A stretch of 38,681 nucleotides of DNA, taken from the IMG/VR virus record IMGVR_UViG_3300005470_000011, positions 1 to 38,681 of that record; one strand, 5' to 3'. The translations under genes were made by a program, and so were the position numbers. Below, piece after piece: positions 1-38,681 of this stretch; positions within the stretch are counted from its first letter, which is position 1; every line of letters begins with the position of its first letter. The notes beneath the pieces were generated by a model. It did not search any database. It had not been told where the DNA came from and saw only the letters and a list, made by a program, of their open reading frames with translations. The DNA comes from a virus. Lineage: Duplodnaviria > Caudoviricetes.

Positions 1-777
1 GATATGTATACTCAAGAAGAGTGGGAAGATATTATAAATAATAGAGATTATGATGCTGATAATCATCAACTATACACTATACATGTAGATTCTGCTGTTG
101 AACACTCTATAGAACATATAGAAAAGATAATAGCTATGACAGGTTGTAAAGATGCGGAATTATATTTTACAAGCGGCTTACACTTCAGATACATAGTTGA
201 CCCTGATTATAAAGCTAATAGAGGTGGTATGCATAGACCTCCAGGATTAAATGAAGTGAAAGCTAAAGTATTAGAACACTACTCTGGTAAAATTTGCACT
301 AAATGGGAAGCCGATGATGAAGTAGTTTATCTAAAAAAACAGCATCCAGATAGATATGTTTTATGTGCTGTTGATAAAGATGTTATCAAGTCTGTACCAG
401 GTGAGCATTGGAATTACTATCAGTCTTCTCAATATAATATTCAACCTAAATGGGTTGAGAATACTGAGCAAGAAGCTATGAGATACAACTATTTACAGGC
501 TATTATGGGAGATACAAATGATGGTATTAAAGGTGTTCCAGGGATTGGTAAAGTAGGAGCTGCAAAGTTCGTACCAGAAGATGCTACTGAACATGAGATG
601 TGGCTAGGCGTTGTTAAAGCATTTGAGTCTAAAGGATTATCTATAATAGATGCTATGATAACTATGCAATTAGTATCTATGCATCAATTAATTGAAGTAG
701 ATGGTGAACCTTATTTACATTTATTTAACCCTCAAATGTTTGAAGAGGAGATAGAGTATGAGCTTCATGAAGTTTGA
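1..777 (+). CDS. 5'-3' exonuclease / flap endonuclease (T7 gp6-like), probably 5'-truncated by the window edge
   Basis: Motifs YKANR, WEADD, DKD, GDTNDGIKGVPGIGKVGA (H3TH). The frame is open from base 1 and the N-terminal acidic motif is absent. Confidence 0.9.
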   Translation, partial: DMYTQEEWEDIINNRDYDADNHQLYTIHVDSAVEHSIEHIEKIIAMTGCKDAELYFTSGLHFRYIVDPDYKANRGGMHRPPGLNEVKAKVLEHYSGKICTKWEADDEVVYLKKQHPDRYVLCAVDKDVIKSVPGEHWNYYQSSQYNIQPKWVENTEQEAMRYNYLQAIMGDTNDGIKGVPGIGKVGAAKFVPEDATEHEMWLGVVKAFESKGLSIIDAMITMQLVSMHQLIEVDGEPYLHLFNPQMFEEEIEYELHEV

Positions 778-1045
778 TGATAAAAAGCCTAAAATGCACC
801 TGGTTGACCCTGATTTTCATGAAGATTTAAGTAGAGTACTAACATTAGGTGCACAGAAGTATGCTGAAAATAACTGGAAAAAGAATAAAGATATCAATAG
901 GTATATAAGCGCTTTAGAGCGTCACCTGCTAGAGATAAAACGGGGTAATTTTTATGATGATGAAACATTATTACAACACAGTAGTCATATAGCTTGTAAT
1001 GCTATGTTTCTACACTATATGATAGATAAGAAAAGGAGAAAATGA
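758..1045 (+). CDS. dATP/dGTP diphosphohydrolase domain protein (DUF5664-like)
   Basis: KFDDKKP...VLTLGAQKYAENNW...ALERHL...DDETLLQHSSHIACNAMFL pattern. Confidence 0.85.
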   Translation: MSFMKFDDKKPKMHLVDPDFHEDLSRVLTLGAQKYAENNWKKNKDINRYISALERHLLEIKRGNFYDDETLLQHSSHIACNAMFLHYMIDKKRRK

Positions 1046-1866
1046 TGCAGTTTGAGTTAGAGTATAGAACACTAGTAACTAAGATACTTAATAATGGTGA
1101 ACTAAGAGATACTAGAAATGGCGTAACAAGAGCTATATTTGGTGAGCAACTTAAAATAGATATAAGCAATATTGAAATACCGTTATTGCTAGGTAGAAGA
1201 ATCTATCATAGAGGTATTTTCGGTGAATTTAGTGCTTTTATGCACAATGCTAAATCAGTAGAAGAGTTTGAAAAATATGGGTGTAACTACTGGCAACTGT
1301 GGGCTGATGCCTCTGGTAGACTAGAACTAGATTATTCAGAGCAACTATTTAATTTTAATGGTGTAAATCAGTTACAAAACTTAATAACTTCGCTCAAAGA
1401 AGACCCAAAGAGTAGAAGACATATTATTAGTCTATGGAGACCTGATAGATTTGAAGATATTAGCTTACACTGTTGTCATTACGCTTACCAGTTTTATGTT
1501 GATGAGTGTAATAATTTACATATGTTATGGAATCAAAGGTCAGTTGATGTAATGGTAGGCTTACCTAGCGATATTATATTAGCTTGGTTATGGGTAAAAC
1601 TACTATGTGCTGAGCTTGGATATACTCCAGGTACTATAACTATGAGTCTTGGTGACTGTCATATTTATGAGGAGCATACTAAAGGAGCTATGCAATACTG
1701 TAGTAATGTTAGAGCTGTATATGGAGATAATAATCCGAATAGAAAAATAATGTTACCTACTGTTACACTACAAGAGTTTAGCAGTATTACAGACTTTATG
1801 GCTACAGATATAGAAGTAGATAACTACTTACCTTATGATAAAATTAGCTTTGAGTTAAAGGCTTAA
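1042..1866 (+). CDS. thyA: Thymidylate synthase-family enzyme, predicted dCMP-specific (Asp at the specificity site)
   Basis: SRRH, catalytic Cys in LHCCH, QRSVD, GDCHIYEEH; GLPSD replaces canonical GLPFN. Confidence 0.9.
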   Translation: MMQFELEYRTLVTKILNNGELRDTRNGVTRAIFGEQLKIDISNIEIPLLLGRRIYHRGIFGEFSAFMHNAKSVEEFEKYGCNYWQLWADASGRLELDYSEQLFNFNGVNQLQNLITSLKEDPKSRRHIISLWRPDRFEDISLHCCHYAYQFYVDECNNLHMLWNQRSVDVMVGLPSDIILAWLWVKLLCAELGYTPGTITMSLGDCHIYEEHTKGAMQYCSNVRAVYGDNNPNRKIMLPTVTLQEFSSITDFMATDIEVDNYLPYDKISFELKA

Positions 1867-2358: not shown

Positions 2359-2571
2359 ATGAAAATTCAAGAGTTGGTATCTTCTTATATAGAAGAGGGG
2401 TTAAAAACTACAGAAATTGCTGAGAAGCTTGGTGTTTCTCAGCCTATGGTTAGTCAATATAAAAAAGGTTACAATGCTTCACTTGATGTAGCTTGTAAAG
2501 TTTATAAAGACTATAATATTGTGTTGTTTCCATTTGGAGAATATGCACTTAAGGAGCTAATCAATGGGTAA
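2359..2571 (+). CDS. XRE-family helix-turn-helix DNA-binding protein
   Basis: TTEIAEKLGVSQPMVSQYKKG HTH. Confidence 0.85.
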   Translation: MKIQELVSSYIEEGLKTTEIAEKLGVSQPMVSQYKKGYNASLDVACKVYKDYNIVLFPFGEYALKELING

Positions 2572-3154
2572 TCTAAGAGAAAATCATCCTGAGTTATGGG
2601 ATAAACCGGAGGAAAAAAGTATGAATTTACTAGAATTAGAAGAAGTAACAATTAAGTGGTCCAAAGATAGAGGTATAATAACTAATGGTAAAGCTACAAC
2701 GCAGGTTATTAAATTAACTAGTGAGTTTGGAGAGTTATGTTTTAATCTTCATACAGGTAAAGATTGTTCTGATGATATAGGTGATATGATGGTAGTTATA
2801 ACTAATATTACACAATTATTAGGTTTTACTAAGGGTATTAGCGAGTGTCCACCAAGAGGAGATGAAGACCAGTTCGGTATATTAAGAGTTGGTGATTATT
2901 TAGGTAGATTGGCTGATAATATAATTAAAAATGAAAAAGAAGAGGCTAGAACTAATATAGGTAATTTAGTTTTTCAACTTATAGATTTATCTAGCAAATT
3001 AGGTATGGACTTAGAAGATTGTTGGAATAAAGCTTATAATGATATTAAAGACCGTAAAGGTTTCTTAACCCCAGAAGGTAACTTTATCAAAGAATCTGAC
3101 TCTGCATATAATAACTATGTAGATAAAAACCAATTAACTATGGTGCTTAAGTAA
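2564..3154 (+). CDS. MazG-like nucleotide pyrophosphohydrolase
   Basis: SEFGEL...DDIGDMMV and AYNDIKDRKG motifs; all-alpha, apparently tandem domains. Confidence 0.8.
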   Translation: MGNLRENHPELWDKPEEKSMNLLELEEVTIKWSKDRGIITNGKATTQVIKLTSEFGELCFNLHTGKDCSDDIGDMMVVITNITQLLGFTKGISECPPRGDEDQFGILRVGDYLGRLADNIIKNEKEEARTNIGNLVFQLIDLSSKLGMDLEDCWNKAYNDIKDRKGFLTPEGNFIKESDSAYNNYVDKNQLTMVLK

Positions 3155-12719: not shown

Positions 12720-13346
12720 TTAATTCCCCCATAAACTTACAGTACCTGGATTATACGCATTAGCATACATAGCCCCTGATACTAGTGAACCTACACCTTG
12801 ACCTGCAGCCGATGCTTGTTGTCCATAAACAGAAGCTTGGTTACTTAATGTATTTGCCATATTTGTAGAGCTGGAAGCTATATTTTGCTGAGCAATATTA
12901 CTTTGCCCCATTCCCATACCTACAAAACCTAATTGTTCTTGTGCCCATTGCTGGTCTGCTTGTGTAGATATTTGTGCTCTATCTTTAGCCCCTTGCATTT
13001 GCATACCCATCATACCTTCAGCCTCAACACCTGAACCAGCTAATCCTCTTTGTGCTAGATTTTGTTGGTATGTATTTTCAGCCATTTTAAATTGCTCATC
13101 ATAAGCATCTAGCCCCATTGTTTTATATTTCTCTGGAGTAAGAGATTTATAATAGGTAGCTAGGTTTTCTTCTGCATCACCATAGATATCTAATGCTCTA
13201 TTATATTGACTTTTTGAAAAATCTAGTTGGCTTTGCGATACATTAGTAGCGCTACTCATAGCCTCAGCTTGGGCATCAGATGCTTTGCTTCCTTCATAAG
13301 CTGTGTAAGCTCCTAATGCTAGACTCCCCCATCCTAATAAACTCAT
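12720..13346 (-). CDS. Putative DNA pilot / ejection protein
   Basis: Gly/Ala/Gln-rich, hydrophobic N-terminus, LAQRGLAGSG motif typical of podovirus internal proteins. Confidence 0.65.
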   Translation of the reverse strand: MSLLGWGSLALGAYTAYEGSKASDAQAEAMSSATNVSQSQLDFSKSQYNRALDIYGDAEENLATYYKSLTPEKYKTMGLDAYDEQFKMAENTYQQNLAQRGLAGSGVEAEGMMGMQMQGAKDRAQISTQADQQWAQEQLGFVGMGMGQSNIAQQNIASSSTNMANTLSNQASVYGQQASAAGQGVGSLVSGAMYANAYNPGTVSLWGN

Positions 13347-13365: not shown

Positions 13366-13397
13366 ATTATATCTAATTTTATCTTAAAATAAAATTA
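13366..13397 (-). promoter_or_regulatory. Putative promoter for the ejection protein and portal genes
   Basis: TAATTTTATTTTAAGA-N10-TATAAT on the minus strand, then an AAGGAG RBS. Confidence 0.6.
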
Positions 13398-14543
13398 ATT
13401 TGTATTTATATTTGAAAATAAATATCTAAAAGACTTTATTTCACCAGTACCTATAAGCTCCATTTCCAGGCTTAGTCCTTCGTTATTTCCTGAAGGTAGT
13501 TTAATCTCTTCTACAACGATAATAGCCGAACTCAAGTCTCCTCTTGATACTTCAACTCCGTCAATATAAACTATAAACTCAAAATTACCTTTATATACTA
13601 AATTAATTTTTTCAAACTCTGTAGGCATATCATATGAGTTACCTATAAACATAGGAGTCTTGTATGTAAGCTCTAGCTCATCACCAACTAAGGCGAGGGT
13701 ATCTTCATACATATTACCATCGTCAAGCTTAGCGTATAGTTTACCTTGGTAGCTATCTATACTAAGTAACCCATACTCTAACTTACTAAATGAAGGCATG
13801 TTATATCTAAAATCAATAGCAATACTATAGTTTGTACCTATTAAATAGTAAACATTATTATATACTTTAGTACCTAATATCTCACCTATGTTATCTAGGT
13901 TTGCTTTCTCTTTCGATATATTACTAATAGCTGAACCTACTGACATTACTAGGCCTTCGTAGTCTAGCCATATTGCGGTATTCTTTACATTATTTATAGA
14001 CTTATAATCTATACAACCTATGGTCTTAGATATAGTAGATAAAACATAGTTATACTTATCTGTCCCACCTAATAGATATGTTTGGTTATTATCAGTAAAT
14101 ATGAGTAACCCTATTGGTGTAGAAGCTAGCCCAGATACTGAACCTCCAACTCTTATACTATTAAAGTTACTCCATGTATTCGGCTTACCAGGTCTAGTAA
14201 AGAATACTTCATTATTTTTAAACGCAAAAAATGTTCCTTTATGCTCTGTTAGACCAATTAAGTTATCTATTATAGCTAAGTTTTGAGAGTCTAAGATATT
14301 TACATTATACTCTTCATTTAAGCTATCAGTATAACTTGTTACCCCTGTACCATCATTTTCTATTTCTGTTATTAGTCTGTAGGTTTGAGAATACCCTCCT
14401 ATACGATATAGTCTAATTGCATCAACGTCTGCATTAGTAGAATAGCTTAAACTGTCCACCTTTAGCTGTTCAGTTTTCTTTAAAAATGTAGTGCTAAACT
14501 TAGGCGCTGATTCGAATCCAGTATCTCTATCATAGTACCTCCT
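13395..14543 (-). CDS. Tail tube/nozzle (head-closure/stabilisation) protein; true start unresolved
   Basis: YYDRDTGFESAP, IRLYRIGG, PGKPNTW, IGC beta-propeller-type motifs. The frame is open 28 codons upstream of the track GTG (14459), which lacks an RBS. Confidence 0.7.
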   Translation of the reverse strand, partial: RRYYDRDTGFESAPKFSTTFLKKTEQLKVDSLSYSTNADVDAIRLYRIGGYSQTYRLITEIENDGTGVTSYTDSLNEEYNVNILDSQNLAIIDNLIGLTEHKGTFFAFKNNEVFFTRPGKPNTWSNFNSIRVGGSVSGLASTPIGLLIFTDNNQTYLLGGTDKYNYVLSTISKTIGCIDYKSINNVKNTAIWLDYEGLVMSVGSAISNISKEKANLDNIGEILGTKVYNNVYYLIGTNYSIAIDFRYNMPSFSKLEYGLLSIDSYQGKLYAKLDDGNMYEDTLALVGDELELTYKTPMFIGNSYDMPTEFEKINLVYKGNFEFIVYIDGVEVSRGDLSSAIIVVEEIKLPSGNNEGLSLEMELIGTGEIKSFRYLFSNINTN

Positions 14544-15769
14544 CTATAATCTATAAATACTGTTTGTTGTGTTTGTCCCATTATAAAATCCTTTTGTGGT
14601 TTGATTAATTGTTTTTGCGTATGTGATGGAGGTAACGATATCATAGATAAGTTCATCCCGTCATAGCTTGTTTGTATTGATACAGTATCTTCAGTTTCTG
14701 TACCTCTAGACACTTCCCCTATATCACCTGAACGTATACTATCACCTCTAAATGAAGGCATACTCCCTGGAGATATATCACCTCTTTGGTCTTCAAAATT
14801 ACTTAGTGCATTTAATGTGTTATAAGTACCAAGTAATCCTATTGACATAGATAGTAACCCATATGTTCTACTAAACGACATAGCGCTAAACCCTTGACCT
14901 ATCATACCGAAGCCTAGCAGAGTACCAGCAAATACTCCTATTACTTCTACTGCTCTAGCCGCAGTTCTAACTGTATTACGAGTAGCCCCAAAAGCCTCTA
15001 GTGCATCAGCAGCTACTTCTGCTCCAAAACCAAACTGAGTATTATTACCATTCCAGTAGTGTGTATTATATGATAATGAAGAGTTACCTATTCCTATGGT
15101 TGTAGTATGGTCCATTATAGACCCATCCATAGCAGTAGAGTAGCTATCCATAGTTTCAATACCAAAGGTTTGGTCATTTACTTCTACATTCCATCCACCA
15201 AAAGCATTCTGATACGACACTGTAGTAGTTTTTGATAGTCCTAGCATACCTGACATTCTATTTACACTAATATCAGACATACCTACTGGTTTACCAGCTG
15301 AGCCTATAAGGTCATCAAAAGCTTGTTGTTCCATCATAGAAGCTATATTGTCATATCCAGTTAAATCACTAAATGATGCTCGGCTAGCATAATCATTATC
15401 TAATGCATCAAATTGCGCTTGAGCCTCTAGAAACTCTGACTCTGATATTCCATTTACTGGGTTGGCTTGCATATAGTTATGCCAACCAATGAGCCCACCA
15501 GAATCGTAGGCATTAGAAGCCTCAGTATTTTTATCTGCTTGAGCTTTCTTCTCCCCTGTTAAGTTGCCATACGAAGTATCACCTGTGCCATCTAGCCCCC
15601 CTTCATCTGTACCTCGCGCTTCATTCTGTTCAACTGATCTTTCGGCATCAGAAAACTCCTTATCAGATACGCTATCGTTATCGCTGCCTTCACTACCAGA
15701 CCCTCCATCACCACCATAGAGTTTTATTGGGGTAAAGAAATAAATTAATAATTGTATTATACTATTCAT
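14480..15769 (-). CDS. Putative virion / ejection protein with hydrophobic leader, Gly-Gly motif and membrane-type segments
   Basis: MNSIIQLLIYFFTPIKLY-GGDGGSG; hydrophobic VIGVFAGTLLGFGMIG and YGLLSMSIGLLG. Confidence 0.55.
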   Translation of the reverse strand: MNSIIQLLIYFFTPIKLYGGDGGSGSEGSDNDSVSDKEFSDAERSVEQNEARGTDEGGLDGTGDTSYGNLTGEKKAQADKNTEASNAYDSGGLIGWHNYMQANPVNGISESEFLEAQAQFDALDNDYASRASFSDLTGYDNIASMMEQQAFDDLIGSAGKPVGMSDISVNRMSGMLGLSKTTTVSYQNAFGGWNVEVNDQTFGIETMDSYSTAMDGSIMDHTTTIGIGNSSLSYNTHYWNGNNTQFGFGAEVAADALEAFGATRNTVRTAARAVEVIGVFAGTLLGFGMIGQGFSAMSFSRTYGLLSMSIGLLGTYNTLNALSNFEDQRGDISPGSMPSFRGDSIRSGDIGEVSRGTETEDTVSIQTSYDGMNLSMISLPPSHTQKQLIKPQKDFIMGQTQQTVFIDYRGGTMIEILDSNQRLSLALHF

Positions 15770-16080
15770 TATCTTATCCTAAACTCTATTATACTGTCTT
15801 TTGATACTGATAGTATTTCTGAGCTAAAAAACTGCACTATAGCTTTTATTTTTGTATAAGCTATCTTTCCAGACAGCTTAGAATAATATTTACCAAGAAG
15901 AGCAAGTTTTTCACTTTTAGTCCCTTTAAAGTAGATATAGTATATATACTCAGTATTACCAACTATTATACAATTTACTCTATTTATAAATATAGTAGAC
16001 TTACCTAAGCAATAGCTTACCATAGTGGGGTCTCCAAATAAAGCTATTAATCGACTTCTTAGCTTTTCCATACTAAGCAA
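15769..16080 (-). CDS. Hypothetical protein coupled to the ketosynthase (possible acyl transfer partner)
   Basis: Overlaps the KS stop and the downstream start (TAATG); no clear motif. Confidence 0.55.
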   Translation of the reverse strand: MLSMEKLRSRLIALFGDPTMVSYCLGKSTIFINRVNCIIVGNTEYIYYIYFKGTKSEKLALLGKYYSKLSGKIAYTKIKAIVQFFSSEILSVSKDSIIEFRIR

Positions 16081-16886
16081 CTCCCATAAAAACTACCTAA
16101 TCCACTAGCTACACATAATACTTTCCCTTTGGCCTTATTATCATCAATAACCTTACAAACTTCTATTAAAGAGCTTGCTCCTTGTGTATGGCCTATAGTG
16201 TCTTTATACAGTATAGTAGGTAAGTGCCCAAATGCTTCTTGTTCAGCCTTATTATTAACTGGTGTACCGGTGCCATGAAGTTTTACCATATCACACTCTG
16301 TAAATATTTTATCATATCCTTCTTTAGTAACTTTAAAAGGGTTGTTATCATAATGTGTTACCCATTTAGTGTCTGTTATTTTAACCTCGCCTTTATTAGA
16401 TAAAACTACACAAGCAAAGCCTTCTCCTAGTGCAAGTTCTATATTACTTTCTTTAAATACAGTTTTTGTTTTGCTAGAAGTTCGTTCTTCAGTAACTATA
16501 ATAACATTGTCTACATCACCAAGCTTTAATAATCTTTCTGCTTCATATAAAGAAAACATACTGCTAGCGCAAGTGTTACTATTAAGGTTCATATAGGTAA
16601 TGTTATTACTTTTATTAAATACCTTAGCGTACTTATGTGCTGAGTAAGACGTTAACTCCTTTATAGTTACGCTAGAATTTACTGTGACTACTCCAGAATT
16701 CCTAGCCTCACTCTGAGATACACTAACACCTATAGCATAAAGTAAGGCCGTTCTGCCCTCTAATTTTATACTACTAAGCTCTTTCTTAAACAGTTTAGTA
16801 TAGTAATCAGTCATATAGATATTATCATCTTCTATGAGCCTATTACCTATGGTGCTATGAGTATAAAAGTAGTTATTTATATACAT
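16059..16886 (-). CDS. Beta-ketoacyl-ACP synthase (FabB/FabF-like, minimal)
   Basis: NTCASS (catalytic Cys), LGEG, KLHGTGT, KDTIGHTQGASS, SGLG: the Cys-His-His triad is intact. Confidence 0.92.
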   Translation of the reverse strand: MYINNYFYTHSTIGNRLIEDDNIYMTDYYTKLFKKELSSIKLEGRTALLYAIGVSVSQSEARNSGVVTVNSSVTIKELTSYSAHKYAKVFNKSNNITYMNLNSNTCASSMFSLYEAERLLKLGDVDNVIIVTEERTSSKTKTVFKESNIELALGEGFACVVLSNKGEVKITDTKWVTHYDNNPFKVTKEGYDKIFTECDMVKLHGTGTPVNNKAEQEAFGHLPTILYKDTIGHTQGASSLIEVCKVIDDNKAKGKVLCVASGLGSFYGSCLVWKS

Positions 16887-17100
16887 TAGTTAGCCTTTCT
16901 ATATCACTAAAGGTTAAGCTTTCAAAGTCTAACTCTTTAAACTCCTCAAAGAATTTAAACTCTTCATTAATAGTTACTAGTAGCATAGTAACACCAAAAC
17001 TATCCAGTTCTGTGTCTACTATCTTCTGGTTTTCATCAATGTATACTCCACCTTCATCTTCAATAGTTTCAATTATTAAGTTTTCTAGTTCTATATTCAT
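16873..17100 (-). CDS. acpP: Acyl carrier protein
   Basis: 75 aa, very acidic, ELDSFG phosphopantetheine Ser motif, INEEF, LTFSD; adjacent to KS. Confidence 0.85.
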   Translation of the reverse strand: MNIELENLIIETIEDEGGVYIDENQKIVDTELDSFGVTMLLVTINEEFKFFEEFKELDFESLTFSDIERLTNVYK

Positions 17101-32780: not shown

Positions 32781-33758
32781 ATGAATTTAGAAGAAACTTT
32801 AAGACTGCACGAGATGTGGTTAAATGATATAGAAGGTGGAACTAGAGCAAACCTTAGAGGAGTAAACCTTTATGGAGCAAACCTTAGAGGAGTAAACCTT
32901 TATGGAGCAAACCTTGAAGGAGTAAACCTTTATGGAGCAAACCTTGAAGGAGTAAACCTTTATGGAGTAAACCTTGAAGGAGCAATCCTTAGAGGAGCAA
33001 TCCTTAGAGGAGCAAACCTTAGAGGAGCAAACCTTCAAGGAGCAAACCTTAGAGGAGCAAACCTTCAAGGAGCATACCTTCAAGGAGCAATCCTTAATGA
33101 AGTGAACCTTAGAGGAGCAAACCTTCAAGGAGCATACCTTCAAGGAGCAATCCTTAATGAAGTGAACCTTAATGAAGTGAACCTTAGAGGAGTAAACCTT
33201 TATGGAGCAAACCTTGAAGGAGCAAACCTTAATGAAGTGAACCTTGAAGGAGCAAACCTTTATGGAGCAAACCTTGAAGGAGCAAACCTTAATGAAGTGA
33301 ACCTTGAAGGAGCAAACCTTTATGTAGCAAACCTTAATGAAGTGAACCTTAATGAAGTGAACCTTGAAGGAGCAAACCTTAGAGGAGCAAACCTTAGAGG
33401 AGCAAACCTTCAAGGAGCAAACCTTAGAGGAGTAAACCTTGGAGGAGCAAACCTTGAAGGAGCAAACCTTAGAGGAACAAACCTTGGAGGAGCAAACCTT
33501 GAAGGAGCAAACCTTGAAGGAGCAATCCTTAGAGGAGCAAACCTTAGAGGAGCAAACCTTGAAGAAGCAGATGGATATTACTCTTTTGTTGCATATGATA
33601 CAAGCAAGAGAATTGTTCATTGTTTTAAGAATAAAAATAATTGGATGATTAAAGCTGGTTGTTTCTGGGGAACTATTGAAGAACTAGAAGAGAAAGTTAA
33701 AGCAACACACAATAGCAAAGTATACCTTGCTAATATTGAAATTCTAAAAGGATTATAA
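32781..33758 (+). CDS. Pentapeptide repeat protein
   Basis: About 48 (A/V)NLxG repeats plus C-terminal IKAGCFWGT domain. Confidence 0.95.
   Translation: MNLEETLRLHEMWLNDIEGGTRANLRGVNLYGANLRGVNLYGANLEGVNLYGANLEGVNLYGVNLEGAILRGAILRGANLRGANLQGANLRGANLQGAYLQGAILNEVNLRGANLQGAYLQGAILNEVNLNEVNLRGVNLYGANLEGANLNEVNLEGANLYGANLEGANLNEVNLEGANLYVANLNEVNLNEVNLEGANLRGANLRGANLQGANLRGVNLGGANLEGANLRGTNLGGANLEGANLEGAILRGANLRGANLEEADGYYSFVAYDTSKRIVHCFKNKNNWMIKAGCFWGTIEELEEKVKATHNSKVYLANIEILKGL
32844..33563 (+). repeat. 15-bp coding tandem repeat, ~48 units
   Basis: GGAGCAAACCTTNNN unit with higher-order block duplications. Confidence 0.95.
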
Positions 33759-37275: not shown

Positions 37276-37335
37276 AAAGTCTAAGTTATAAGCTTAGCAA
37301 AACTAATGGGATAGTTACCCAATAAAAGGAAAATA

Positions 37336-38681
37336 ATGAAAAAAGTACAATGGAGAATATGTGAATCTTTAGAGGAGGTTCAACACTTAACTACAGAACA
37401 TCCAACGTTCGCAGATATAGAAACTCATGGTTTTTATATTAATACACGACTTGTTCAAGTTTATCAACCAGCAACGGATGATACTGTATATATTTTAGAT
37501 ACCGATATACTAGACTTAAACGAGATTAAAGCTTGGTTAAAACCTATGTGGACTATATGGCAAGGTTGTACATACGATTTTGGTACTCTTAATATGACTA
37601 CTGATAAGTTTGATGATACATTATACATGGCACGTTCAGCTTACCCTGAGTGGAAAGAATTTAAGCTAGATAATATAGTTACGCAACTAGGTTTTGATTA
37701 TTTATATGCTGGATTAGATAAAAAAGAGATGCAAAAGATGGGATTCGTTCCTGGGGCATATCTATCACAGAATCAATTACGTTATGCTTGTGCTGATGTT
37801 GTTGCTCTTAGTTTAATTTGGGAAGACAGAAAGATTCAAGAGACCAGAAATATATTCTCTTATATTATTGATATTATTTCTGTTAAATATTCTATTGAAT
37901 ATCAACAAAATAGTTTATTAGTAGACCAGTCAGCAGTTCGTAAAGAGCTAGATACAATTGAAATAGCTATTAAAGAGTATGAAAAGAAACTTGGTGGGCT
38001 TAATTGCAATTCGCCTAAGCAATGTAAAGAAGCACTAGGTACAGATTCTACAAGCAAAGAAACCCTTATTAAACTAATTGGTGAAGGTAATGAACTTGCT
38101 GAAGCTGTATTTAAACAAAGAAGACAGTTAAAGCGTAGAACATTTTTACATAGCTATAACTACCCTTATGTTGAAACAAGATTTAATCCAGCAGGAGCTG
38201 CAACTGGCAGATTTACATCAACTGGCGGTGATTTACCTAGAGGTATTAATGCTCAACAAATTACTCGTGACTTACAGTATATATTCCATCAACCTGATGA
38301 TACTACATCAGTTGTACATGCAGACTTTAGTACTGCTGAGCTTAGGGCTGGTTGTAGTATTATGAAAGATGAAGCTATGTATAATGAGCTTATGAGTGGT
38401 ATGGATTTACATAAGATTGCTGCAACATTTGCGATTGATAAAGCTCCAACTGAAATTACAAAAGCTGAACGTCAAAAAGGTAAAGCTATTAGTTTTGGGT
38501 TTATTTTTGGCATGAGTGCACCATCATTTCAAGAGTATGCTTATGTTAACTATGGTGTTACCTTTACATTAGAAGAGTGTAAAGCTATTAAAGCTAAATA
38601 TAATAATAAATATACTGGTATTAGTAGTTATCACAAACAAATGTGGAATAGCTATAAACGTACTCCAGTAGAGACTCCTAG
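37336..38681 (+). CDS. polA: Family A DNA polymerase with 3'-5' exonuclease, 3'-truncated by the window edge; not in the ORF track
   Basis: MKKVQWR...; ADIET exo I, YACAD exo III, ATGRFTS, NAQQ, ADFSTAELR motif A, DLH, RQKGKAISFGFIFG motif B. Confidence 0.95.
   Translation, partial: MKKVQWRICESLEEVQHLTTEHPTFADIETHGFYINTRLVQVYQPATDDTVYILDTDILDLNEIKAWLKPMWTIWQGCTYDFGTLNMTTDKFDDTLYMARSAYPEWKEFKLDNIVTQLGFDYLYAGLDKKEMQKMGFVPGAYLSQNQLRYACADVVALSLIWEDRKIQETRNIFSYIIDIISVKYSIEYQQNSLLVDQSAVRKELDTIEIAIKEYEKKLGGLNCNSPKQCKEALGTDSTSKETLIKLIGEGNELAEAVFKQRRQLKRRTFLHSYNYPYVETRFNPAGAATGRFTSTGGDLPRGINAQQITRDLQYIFHQPDDTTSVVHADFSTAELRAGCSIMKDEAMYNELMSGMDLHKIAATFAIDKAPTEITKAERQKGKAISFGFIFGMSAPSFQEYAYVNYGVTFTLEECKAIKAKYNNKYTGISSYHKQMWNSYKRTPVETP

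What the first reader, a model, noticed from the sequence alone, without database searches (positions are those of the whole stretch)
14480..17100. ACP and ketosynthase embedded in the virion operon: candidate phage virion-protein lipidation system
Seen: an ACP (DSF Ser motif) and a minimal 275-aa FabB/F-like synthase with an intact Cys-His-His triad. They are linked by overlapping stop/start codons to a 103-aa unknown and then a 429-aa membrane-type protein, and lie between the tail fibres/endolysin and the nozzle/ejection genes. No reductase, dehydratase or PPTase was recognised, so this is not a fatty-acid pathway. Known: acyl-ACP can donate acyl chains to proteins (HlyC/RTX toxins), and KS folds can act as transacylases. 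Inference: host AcpS activates the phage ACP, the KS loads an acyl chain taken from host FAS, and the chain is passed to a virion or ejection protein to help cross the membrane.
Basis: partly seen in the sequence, partly recalled or inferred. Interest (0 to 1): 0.9.

Follow-up and report, generated by a model that had tools for sequence, protein, structure and literature searches.

The report
Phage acylation kit before tail nozzle
This uncultured short-tailed phage carries its own acyl carrier protein, a fatty-acid-type condensing enzyme and a tiny protein predicted to have an acyltransferase fold directly in front of a predicted tail-tip gene, and these likely attach an acyl chain to the start of that protein, a modification that is untested.

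Summary
The ACP and ketosynthase are real: Ser34, and a Cys106/His204/His233 triad kept in 73 of 73 full-length relatives. The 103-aa unknown (probably 100 aa) is predicted to be a miniature GNAT lacking the CoA-binding motif. ACP-KS-GNAT order holds in nearly all of 88 dereplicated loci, ahead of tail-tip or virion genes.

The '429-aa membrane protein' is not a separate gene. A 400-nt deletion in this contig splits a 924-aa protein that is intact in other assemblies: a ~396-aa extension fused to the nozzle. A ribosome-binding site and Met at the joint (8 of 8 distinct relatives) would also give plain nozzle.

Two cultured Alteromonas phages have ACP + GNAT without KS, so the GNAT, not the KS, is the likelier transferase.

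Best reading (0.5): N-terminal acylation of the downstream tail-tip protein. Against it: three complete relatives keep the extension without the cassette, and N-terminal Gly is not specific to cassette carriers. No acylation has been shown. The scan reported this cassette before on other genomes; no paper describing it was found.

The parts
16873..17100 (-). Acyl carrier protein, 75 aa, predicted phosphopantetheine site Ser34
   Evidence: D33-S34 invariant in 40 aligned relatives; profile hits PDB carrier proteins, best NodF E 3.9e-6
16059..16886 (-). Minimal ketosynthase, 275 aa, Cys106/His204/His233 plus Lys228
   Evidence: all four residues in 73 of 73 full-length representatives
15769..16071 (-). 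Miniature protein (100 aa; 103 from TTG 16080) predicted to have a GNAT acyltransferase fold, without the [QR]xxGx[GA] CoA motif
   Evidence: Model pLDDT 92.9; fold search best Z 8.4, rmsd 2.6, 99 aligned, nearly all 50 rows titled acetyl/acyltransferases; motif in 0 of 10
14538..15769 (-). 5' part of the extension-nozzle gene (residues 1-411 of 924): 18-aa putative leader ending in FTPIKLY, then GGDGG, an acidic Gly-rich stretch, a conserved middle and hydrophobic segments (273-291, 304-322); candidate acyl acceptor
14579..14593 (-). Shine-Dalgarno-like AAGGA (14589-14593) and in-frame ATG (Met397, 14579-14581) where free-standing nozzles of relatives begin; would give a 528-aa plain nozzle in the intact gene
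   Evidence: 8 of 8 distinct long genes vs 4 of 158 other internal Met
14537..14538 (.). Site of a 400-nt deletion relative to L058; frameshifts the gene into the 429-aa and 354-aa ORFs
13395..14537 (-). 3' part of the nozzle (tail stabilization-type) gene
   Evidence: phrog_511 E 7e-27; relatives annotated internal virion or stabilization protein
12720..13346 (-). First DNA-ejection protein, 208 aa; alternative acceptor
   Evidence: phrog_21132 DNA ejection E 1e-29

Best explanation
The phage encodes its own acyl carrier, a ketosynthase with an intact active site and a miniature protein predicted to be a GNAT, which together likely put an acyl chain on the freed N-terminus of the tail-tip protein encoded next, here the long extension-plus-nozzle form. 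Shown: the genes, their order, the catalytic residues, the fused gene and the internal start signal in the DNA. Predicted: the GNAT fold. Inferred steps: (1) host AcpS primes Ser34; (2) the phage ACP is charged from host fatty-acid metabolism, and the KS extends or reshapes the chain by condensation, an optional tailoring step; (3) the 18-aa leader is cut after ...PIKLY to expose Gly19 (Ser in P0153), matching the Gly/Ser left after Met removal in leaderless relatives; (4) the GNAT moves the chain from ACP to that amine; (5) two products from one gene, long and plain nozzle, would put a few acylated extensions at the tail tip to grip or enter the host outer membrane. In this lineage the kit is an add-on to an extension that works without it.
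For: ACP directly upstream of or fused to the KS in 72 of 73 representatives with room upstream (70 by motif; 2 more by profile). A small gene of three related or similar families follows the KS directly in 75 of 80 and within two genes in 77 of 80 (the profiles were built from these genes, so this counts position only). Two of the families are homologous (E 1.9e-5); one member's Atlas model matches GNATs at TM 0.63-0.67; the window's model matches GNATs over its whole length. The CoA motif is missing in 10 of 10, 42 of 44 and 26 of 26 members, as fits a carrier-protein donor. The next gene differs by phage type (nozzle here, N4 gp53-like plug protein in most, 260-530-aa proteins in others), yet starts Met-Gly or Met-Ser in 61 of 70 against 85 of 467 background ORFs, and has an amphipathic start in 61% against 5% (L054 left out). 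In N4-like phages 15 of 15 aligned ACP/GNAT carriers have an extra 35-55-aa N-terminal segment on gp53 that 0 of 8 cassette-less cultured phages have. The leader is conserved in 3 of 3 close relatives. P22 gp7 loses a 20-aa leader to start KGGKG (PMC8402733, passages). Goadvionin GNATs transfer an ACP-bound chain to a ribosomal peptide (PMC8784127, passages).
Against: No acylation data exist. Three of three complete relatives with a homologous extension lack ACP, KS and GNAT, and L187 keeps a similar leader-then-Gly start. On the portal tree the cassette pair nests inside the extension clade, so the extension probably came first. Met-Gly starts occur in cassette-less gp53 too (6 of 8 annotated starts, and near the start in the other 2), so Gly2 is not diagnostic. 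The window's N-terminus is not of the amphipathic type (moment 0.28). The 15-vs-0 split may reflect kinship. The window's GNAT family matches the other two only weakly (P 0.069 and 0.45); Foldseek gave no E<=0.001 hit and only one Z reached 8. L054 lacks a GNAT-family gene, and L056 has a KS with no ACP or GNAT hit beside it. Leader cleavage is inferred from analogy.
Confidence: 0.5

Rival explanations
1. Same chemistry, different acceptor: the GNAT acylates the first ejection protein (12720-13346), another virion protein, or a host protein or lipid.
For: The ejection gene lies one gene further on. In MW202545 a similar ACP-KS-small gene block sits after the nozzle and before ejection-type genes. 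The extension exists without the cassette.
Against: The gene right after the GNAT, not the one after that, shows the Gly/Ser bias (61 of 70 vs 16 of 48). The extra gp53 segment tracks the cassette.
Confidence: 0.2
2. The GNAT-fold protein is a malonyl-ACP decarboxylase or loading enzyme that primes the KS, and the trio makes a short beta-keto acid or other small molecule.
For: GNAT-like decarboxylase domains (SxtA 7uci Z 7.0, GphF 6mfc Z 6.9) are among the tied fold matches. The KS keeps both His. No CoA motif.
Against: ACP + GNAT persist without a KS in two cultured phages. No release enzyme was seen. It does not explain the N-terminal bias of the next gene.
Confidence: 0.12
3. One reading: the KS itself is the transacylase that hands a host chain to the virion protein.
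For: The KS is about 130 aa shorter than FabB/F-type matches. KS-fold acyltransferases such as ChlB3 and CerJ are in the fold list at Z about 19-20.
Against: Elongating KSs score higher (Z 24-27). The triad is Cys-His-His in 73 of 73. The KS is absent in R22Y and PT11-V19. It could still load the phage ACP by acyl exchange.
Confidence: 0.08
4. Auxiliary metabolic genes that boost host fatty-acid synthesis; their place in the virion operon is incidental. This is the published reading for the R22Y ACP.
For: PMC11705849 (passages) and PMC8224337 (passages) call phage ACPs auxiliary metabolic genes. The cassette is optional.
Against: The ACP and KS are far from host AcpP and FabF. Order and position ahead of tail-tip genes hold across different phage types. 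No FabA/Z-type dehydratase in 5 of 5 contigs.
Confidence: 0.1

Closest known systems
Goadvionin-type carrier-dependent GNAT acylation of ribosomal peptides (PMC8784127 passages; Kozakai 2020 seen only as cited there; the enzyme name GdvG is from recall and scan notes)
   Same: Dedicated ACP, KS and GNAT next to a ribosomally made acceptor; N-terminal acylation after processing.
   Different: Phage virion operon, a 260-930-aa structural protein as candidate acceptor, a 100-aa GNAT, no reductive enzymes; activity untested.
NodF/NodE/NodA of rhizobia (NodF is the top ACP hit; the roles of NodE and NodA are recalled)
   Same: Specialised ACP plus KS plus N-acyltransferase that lean on host fatty-acid synthesis.
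   Different: The Nod acceptor is a chitin oligomer; no sugar enzymes are linked here.
FabB/FabF (KAS I/II) with AcpP
   Same: Thiolase fold, Cys-His-His triad, conserved Lys, DS motif.
   Different: 275 aa vs about 410, 14-18% identity, coupled to a GNAT and tail genes, no fab operon.
T7 gp13 / P22 gp14 small proteins before ejection genes (lead from recall and earlier scan notes)
   Same: Small putative GNAT in the tail-to-ejection gene block of podoviruses.
   Different: No Pfam hit to these families in 38 members at E<=0.1; those phages have no ACP or KS (recalled).
P22 gp7 leader processing (PMC8402733 passages)
   Same: About 20-aa leader followed by a Gly-rich start.
   Different: gp7 is an ejection protein with a sequenceable N-terminus (KGGKG); here the motif heads a nozzle fusion, and no homology was tested.
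Phage ACP 'auxiliary metabolic genes' (R22Y gp30, PMC11705849; roseobacter prophage fabG-acpP-fabF, PMC8224337)
   Same: The R22Y ACP sits in the same ACP-GNAT-gp53 arrangement.
   Different: The passages read propose host fatty-acid metabolism and do not mention the GNAT-like neighbour or acylation.

Membership tests
Acyl carrier protein (PF00550) | Conserved Asp-Ser phosphopantetheine site | tested here: met
   D33-S34 invariant in 40 of 40
Acyl carrier protein (PF00550) | Profile similarity to carrier proteins | tested here: met
   Family profile to NodF E 3.9e-6; the single protein stays below the Pfam cut-off, 14.2 vs 20.8 bits
Acyl carrier protein (PF00550) | Phosphopantetheinylation in vivo | not testable with these tools
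   Needs mass spectrometry
Elongating ketosynthase (FabB/F, type II PKS KS) | Thiolase fold | tested here: met
   Z 27.2, rmsd 3.0, 263 aligned to 7f28
Elongating ketosynthase (FabB/F, type II PKS KS) | Cys-His-His triad and Lys | tested here: met
   73 of 73; aligned to FabF-type motifs
Elongating ketosynthase (FabB/F, type II PKS KS) | Decarboxylative condensation activity | not testable with these tools
   Needs an assay
Type II fatty-acid synthase operon | Linked reductase, dehydratase and malonyl transferase | tested here: not met
   None in 49 window ORFs (contig incomplete); PF07977 in 0 of 5 contigs; reductase not searched genome-wide in relatives
GNAT superfamily | GNAT fold | tested here: met
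   Predicted model; Z 6.4-8.4, 92-100 of 100 residues aligned, nearly all 50 rows acetyl/acyltransferases; moderate scores, no Foldseek hit at E<=0.001
CoA-dependent GNAT | [QR]xxGx[GA] pyrophosphate-binding motif (motif recalled) | tested here: not met
   0 of 10 in the window's family
Goadvionin-type carrier-dependent GNAT system | ACP, KS and GNAT clustered with a ribosomal acceptor | tested here: met
   Gene order; the acceptor is only a candidate
Goadvionin-type carrier-dependent GNAT system | Transfer from acyl-ACP to a peptide N-terminus | not testable with these tools
   Needs an assay
Goadvionin-type carrier-dependent GNAT system | Sequence kinship to the goadvionin GNAT | not tested
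   No reference sequence fetched
T7 gp13 / P22 gp14 class | Profile match to their Pfam or PHROG families | tested here: inconclusive
   No such hit in 38 members or 10 members; one related-family member hits phrog_1249 acetyltransferase, E 7.9e-5
HlyC/RTX-activating acyltransferase | HlyC family match | tested here: inconclusive
   Not listed in Pfam scans or among the 50 fold rows; not listed is not excluded

The most novel reading that the evidence does not exclude
Tailed phages have a mobile, carrier-dependent protein-lipidation system that acylates a tail-tip subunit, a prokaryotic parallel to myristoylated entry proteins of animal viruses. In this lineage one gene makes both plain nozzle and a leader-cleaved, lipid-tipped long nozzle through an internal start, so the tail carries a few membrane-gripping arms.
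Probability: 0.35. Interest if true: 0.9.

Novelty: new variant of a known kind. Interest (0 to 1): 0.68.

Why it matters
Acylated structural proteins of tailed phages did not turn up in the searches run here, and how short tails grip the outer membrane is open. If true, a class of phage ACPs now read as auxiliary metabolic genes would be virion-assembly genes. The idea is testable now in two cultured Alteromonas phages (R22Y, PT11-V19) that carry ACP + GNAT. The conserved internal start points to a two-product nozzle gene, whatever the cassette does.

Tried and rejected
- Single-protein scan of viral contigs with the KS found nothing; the alignment query found 54 loci.
- ESM Atlas on the window's GNAT gave no usable feature hit and unnamed structure hits.
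- Locus scans with two relatives of the mini-GNAT (P0145, P0146) found none, so the context of 8 of the 10 family members is unknown; so is that of P0153.
- No sequencing run was listed, so whether the 400-nt deletion is a misassembly or a real defective variant is open.
- The GNAT-ACP complex prediction gave no answer (score 0.00) and is not used as evidence.
- The 924-aa protein has no PDB sequence hit, and the extension has no Pfam family. The nozzle label rests on PHROG, on annotation of relatives and on gene position, not on a structure.
- Tblastn of the MW202545 KS gave 17 weak hits besides itself in unannotated records; these were not opened.
- Gly2 as a myristoylation-like signature was rejected as diagnostic.
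- Similar-length genes near the nozzle in cultured relatives are not KSs.
- NO16 (PMC13552765, passages), DEV (PMC11445570, passages), A1002 (PMC13730344, abstract and outline) and the ejection review (PMC8954989, passages) showed nothing on acylation.
- Literature searches without a description of this cassette. The library lacks most subscription papers, and no supplements were read; the R22Y supplements could bear on annotation.
Full report
Context. The window is a partial short-tailed phage genome: P22-like portal, SU10-type adaptor, major head protein, terminase and ejection gene. It is cut inside DNA polymerase A at the right end. Its nozzle-type protein links it to cultured 41-43-kb phages PH1, KF-1 and VPMS1.

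ACP and KS. The 75-aa ORF has DSF at 33-35. D-S is invariant in 40 aligned relatives and the profile's best PDB hit is NodF (E 3.9e-6). The KS has 218 relatives at E<=0.001 among 1,217 candidates. Its model (pLDDT 93) matches elongating ketosynthases best (7f28, Z 27.2). Cys106, His204, Lys228 and His233 are kept in 73 of 73 full-length representatives.

Neighbourhood. Scans gave 54 viral loci, 80 of 82 metagenome loci and 2 genome loci. The 134 viral and metagenome loci reduce to 88 at 90% KS identity; L001, L056 and L057 were left out of these counts. An ACP precedes or is fused to the KS in 72 of 73 with room upstream. A small gene follows directly in 75 of 80 and within two genes in 77. 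In L008, and weakly in L060, it lies upstream; L054 has none. These profiles were built from the same genes, so the count shows position, not independent identity. PPTase and FabA/Z families were absent from 5 of 5 larger contigs, 2 of them at least 90% complete.

The unknown ORF. The small genes fall into three groups. Two are homologous (E 1.9e-5), and one member's Atlas model matches GNATs (TM 0.63-0.67). The window's group (10 proteins) matches the others only weakly. Its own model (pLDDT 92.9) aligns end to end with acetyl/acyltransferases in nearly all 50 rows (Z 6.4-8.4). Foldseek agrees in kind, without a significant E-value. The CoA motif is absent. I read it as a miniature GNAT, predicted and not shown.

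The 429-aa ORF. A near-identical assembly, L058, has 400 more bases at 14537/14538 and one 924-aa ORF. Two 924-aa cluster members exist, and the split pieces occur only on a contig of this window's length. Free-standing nozzles of four relatives align from their first residues to about residue 403, so residues 1-396 are an extension. At the joint lie a Shine-Dalgarno-like word and an in-frame Met: 18 of 18 long genes, or 8 of 8 after dereplication, against 4 of 158 other internal Met. This suggests two products, though expression is unseen. The extension starts with an 18-aa segment ending in FTPIKLY in 3 of 3 close relatives, followed by GG, GG or SSG. This resembles P22 gp7, whose 20-aa leader is removed by host OpdA (PMC8402733, passages).

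Is the cassette tied to its neighbour? For: across 70 representatives the next gene starts Met-Gly (32) or Met-Ser (29) and is often amphipathic (starts were chosen by script as the ATG nearest the previous stop). In most it is the N4 gp53 homologue, the tail plug in N4 (PMC13434306, passages). All 15 aligned ACP/GNAT carriers have an extra N-terminal segment that 8 cassette-less cultured phages lack. Against: those 8 also start at or near Met-Gly. In the window's own lineage, 54 portal representatives include 34 with plain nozzles, 5 with extensions, 3 cut and 12 with no nozzle in view, and only L146 has the cassette. Three complete extension-bearing genomes lack ACP, KS and GNAT, while the positive control rang. 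On a 42-row portal tree the extension group is one side of a 100/100 branch, and the cassette pair nests inside it (midpoint root, and short or partial portals mostly left out). The simplest reading is that the cassette was inserted ahead of an existing extension.

Which enzyme transfers? Cultured Alteromonas phages R22Y and PT11-V19 carry ACP, a GNAT-group gene and gp53 with the extra segment, with no KS between them. No KS was found in R22Y by profile, and neither phage appeared in the KS tblastn. ACP + GNAT is therefore the core and the KS a tailoring step. The R22Y paper calls the ACP an auxiliary metabolic gene (PMC11705849, passages).

Mechanism and odds. Best (0.5): carrier-dependent N-terminal acylation of the adjacent tail-tip protein by the GNAT, with the KS shaping the chain. 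It works like the goadvionin GNATs (PMC8784127, passages) but is not shown to be a member. Rivals: another acceptor 0.2, decarboxylase or small-molecule route 0.12, metabolic helper 0.1, KS as transacylase 0.08.

Novelty. Searches found no paper on this cassette. The scan's notes list 11 similar findings on other genomes, 8 shown; these are leads, not support. Not seen in the notes returned: the deletion artefact, the extension-nozzle fusion with an internal start, the cassette-less sister genomes and the two cultured KS-less phages.

Noticed in passing
window 14579-14593 (-); L146, L180, L181, L187, L188, L195, L204: Conserved ribosome-binding site and in-frame Met at the extension-nozzle joint, independent of the cassette; suggests a two-product nozzle gene.
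   Followed up: partly
L142:4158-7685 (PP212876.1) and L145:4254-7079 (OP751378.1): Cultured Alteromonas phages with ACP, GNAT-group gene and gp53 but no KS; ready test systems.
   Followed up: partly
L047:7767-8858: ACP fused to KS in one 363-aa ORF.
   Followed up: partly
L115:3381-4238; L124: Two GNAT-group genes in tandem after the KS.
   Followed up: no
L056:5911-6813: KS in a phage-like stretch of a Sulfurospirillum MAG contig with no ACP or GNAT hit beside it.
   Followed up: partly
L001:11414-15155 (MW202545.1): A longer 366-aa KS with ACP, a 146-aa gene and a Met-Gly-Gly protein between the stabilization protein and ejection-type genes in a freshwater phage.
   Followed up: partly
L058:1-547 vs window 17776 onward: The near-identical assembly differs at the 3' end of the tail-fibre gene, which may be a fibre-tip swap.
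   Followed up: no
window 758-1866 and 2564-3154 (+): dATP/dGTP diphosphohydrolase, thymidylate synthase and MazG-like genes in a row; possible nucleotide-pool or DNA-modification module.
   Followed up: no
window 32781-33758 (+): 325-aa pentapeptide-repeat protein with strong internal DNA repeats.
   Followed up: no
window 37315-38681 (+): DNA polymerase A running off the contig end; the genome is incomplete.
   Followed up: yes
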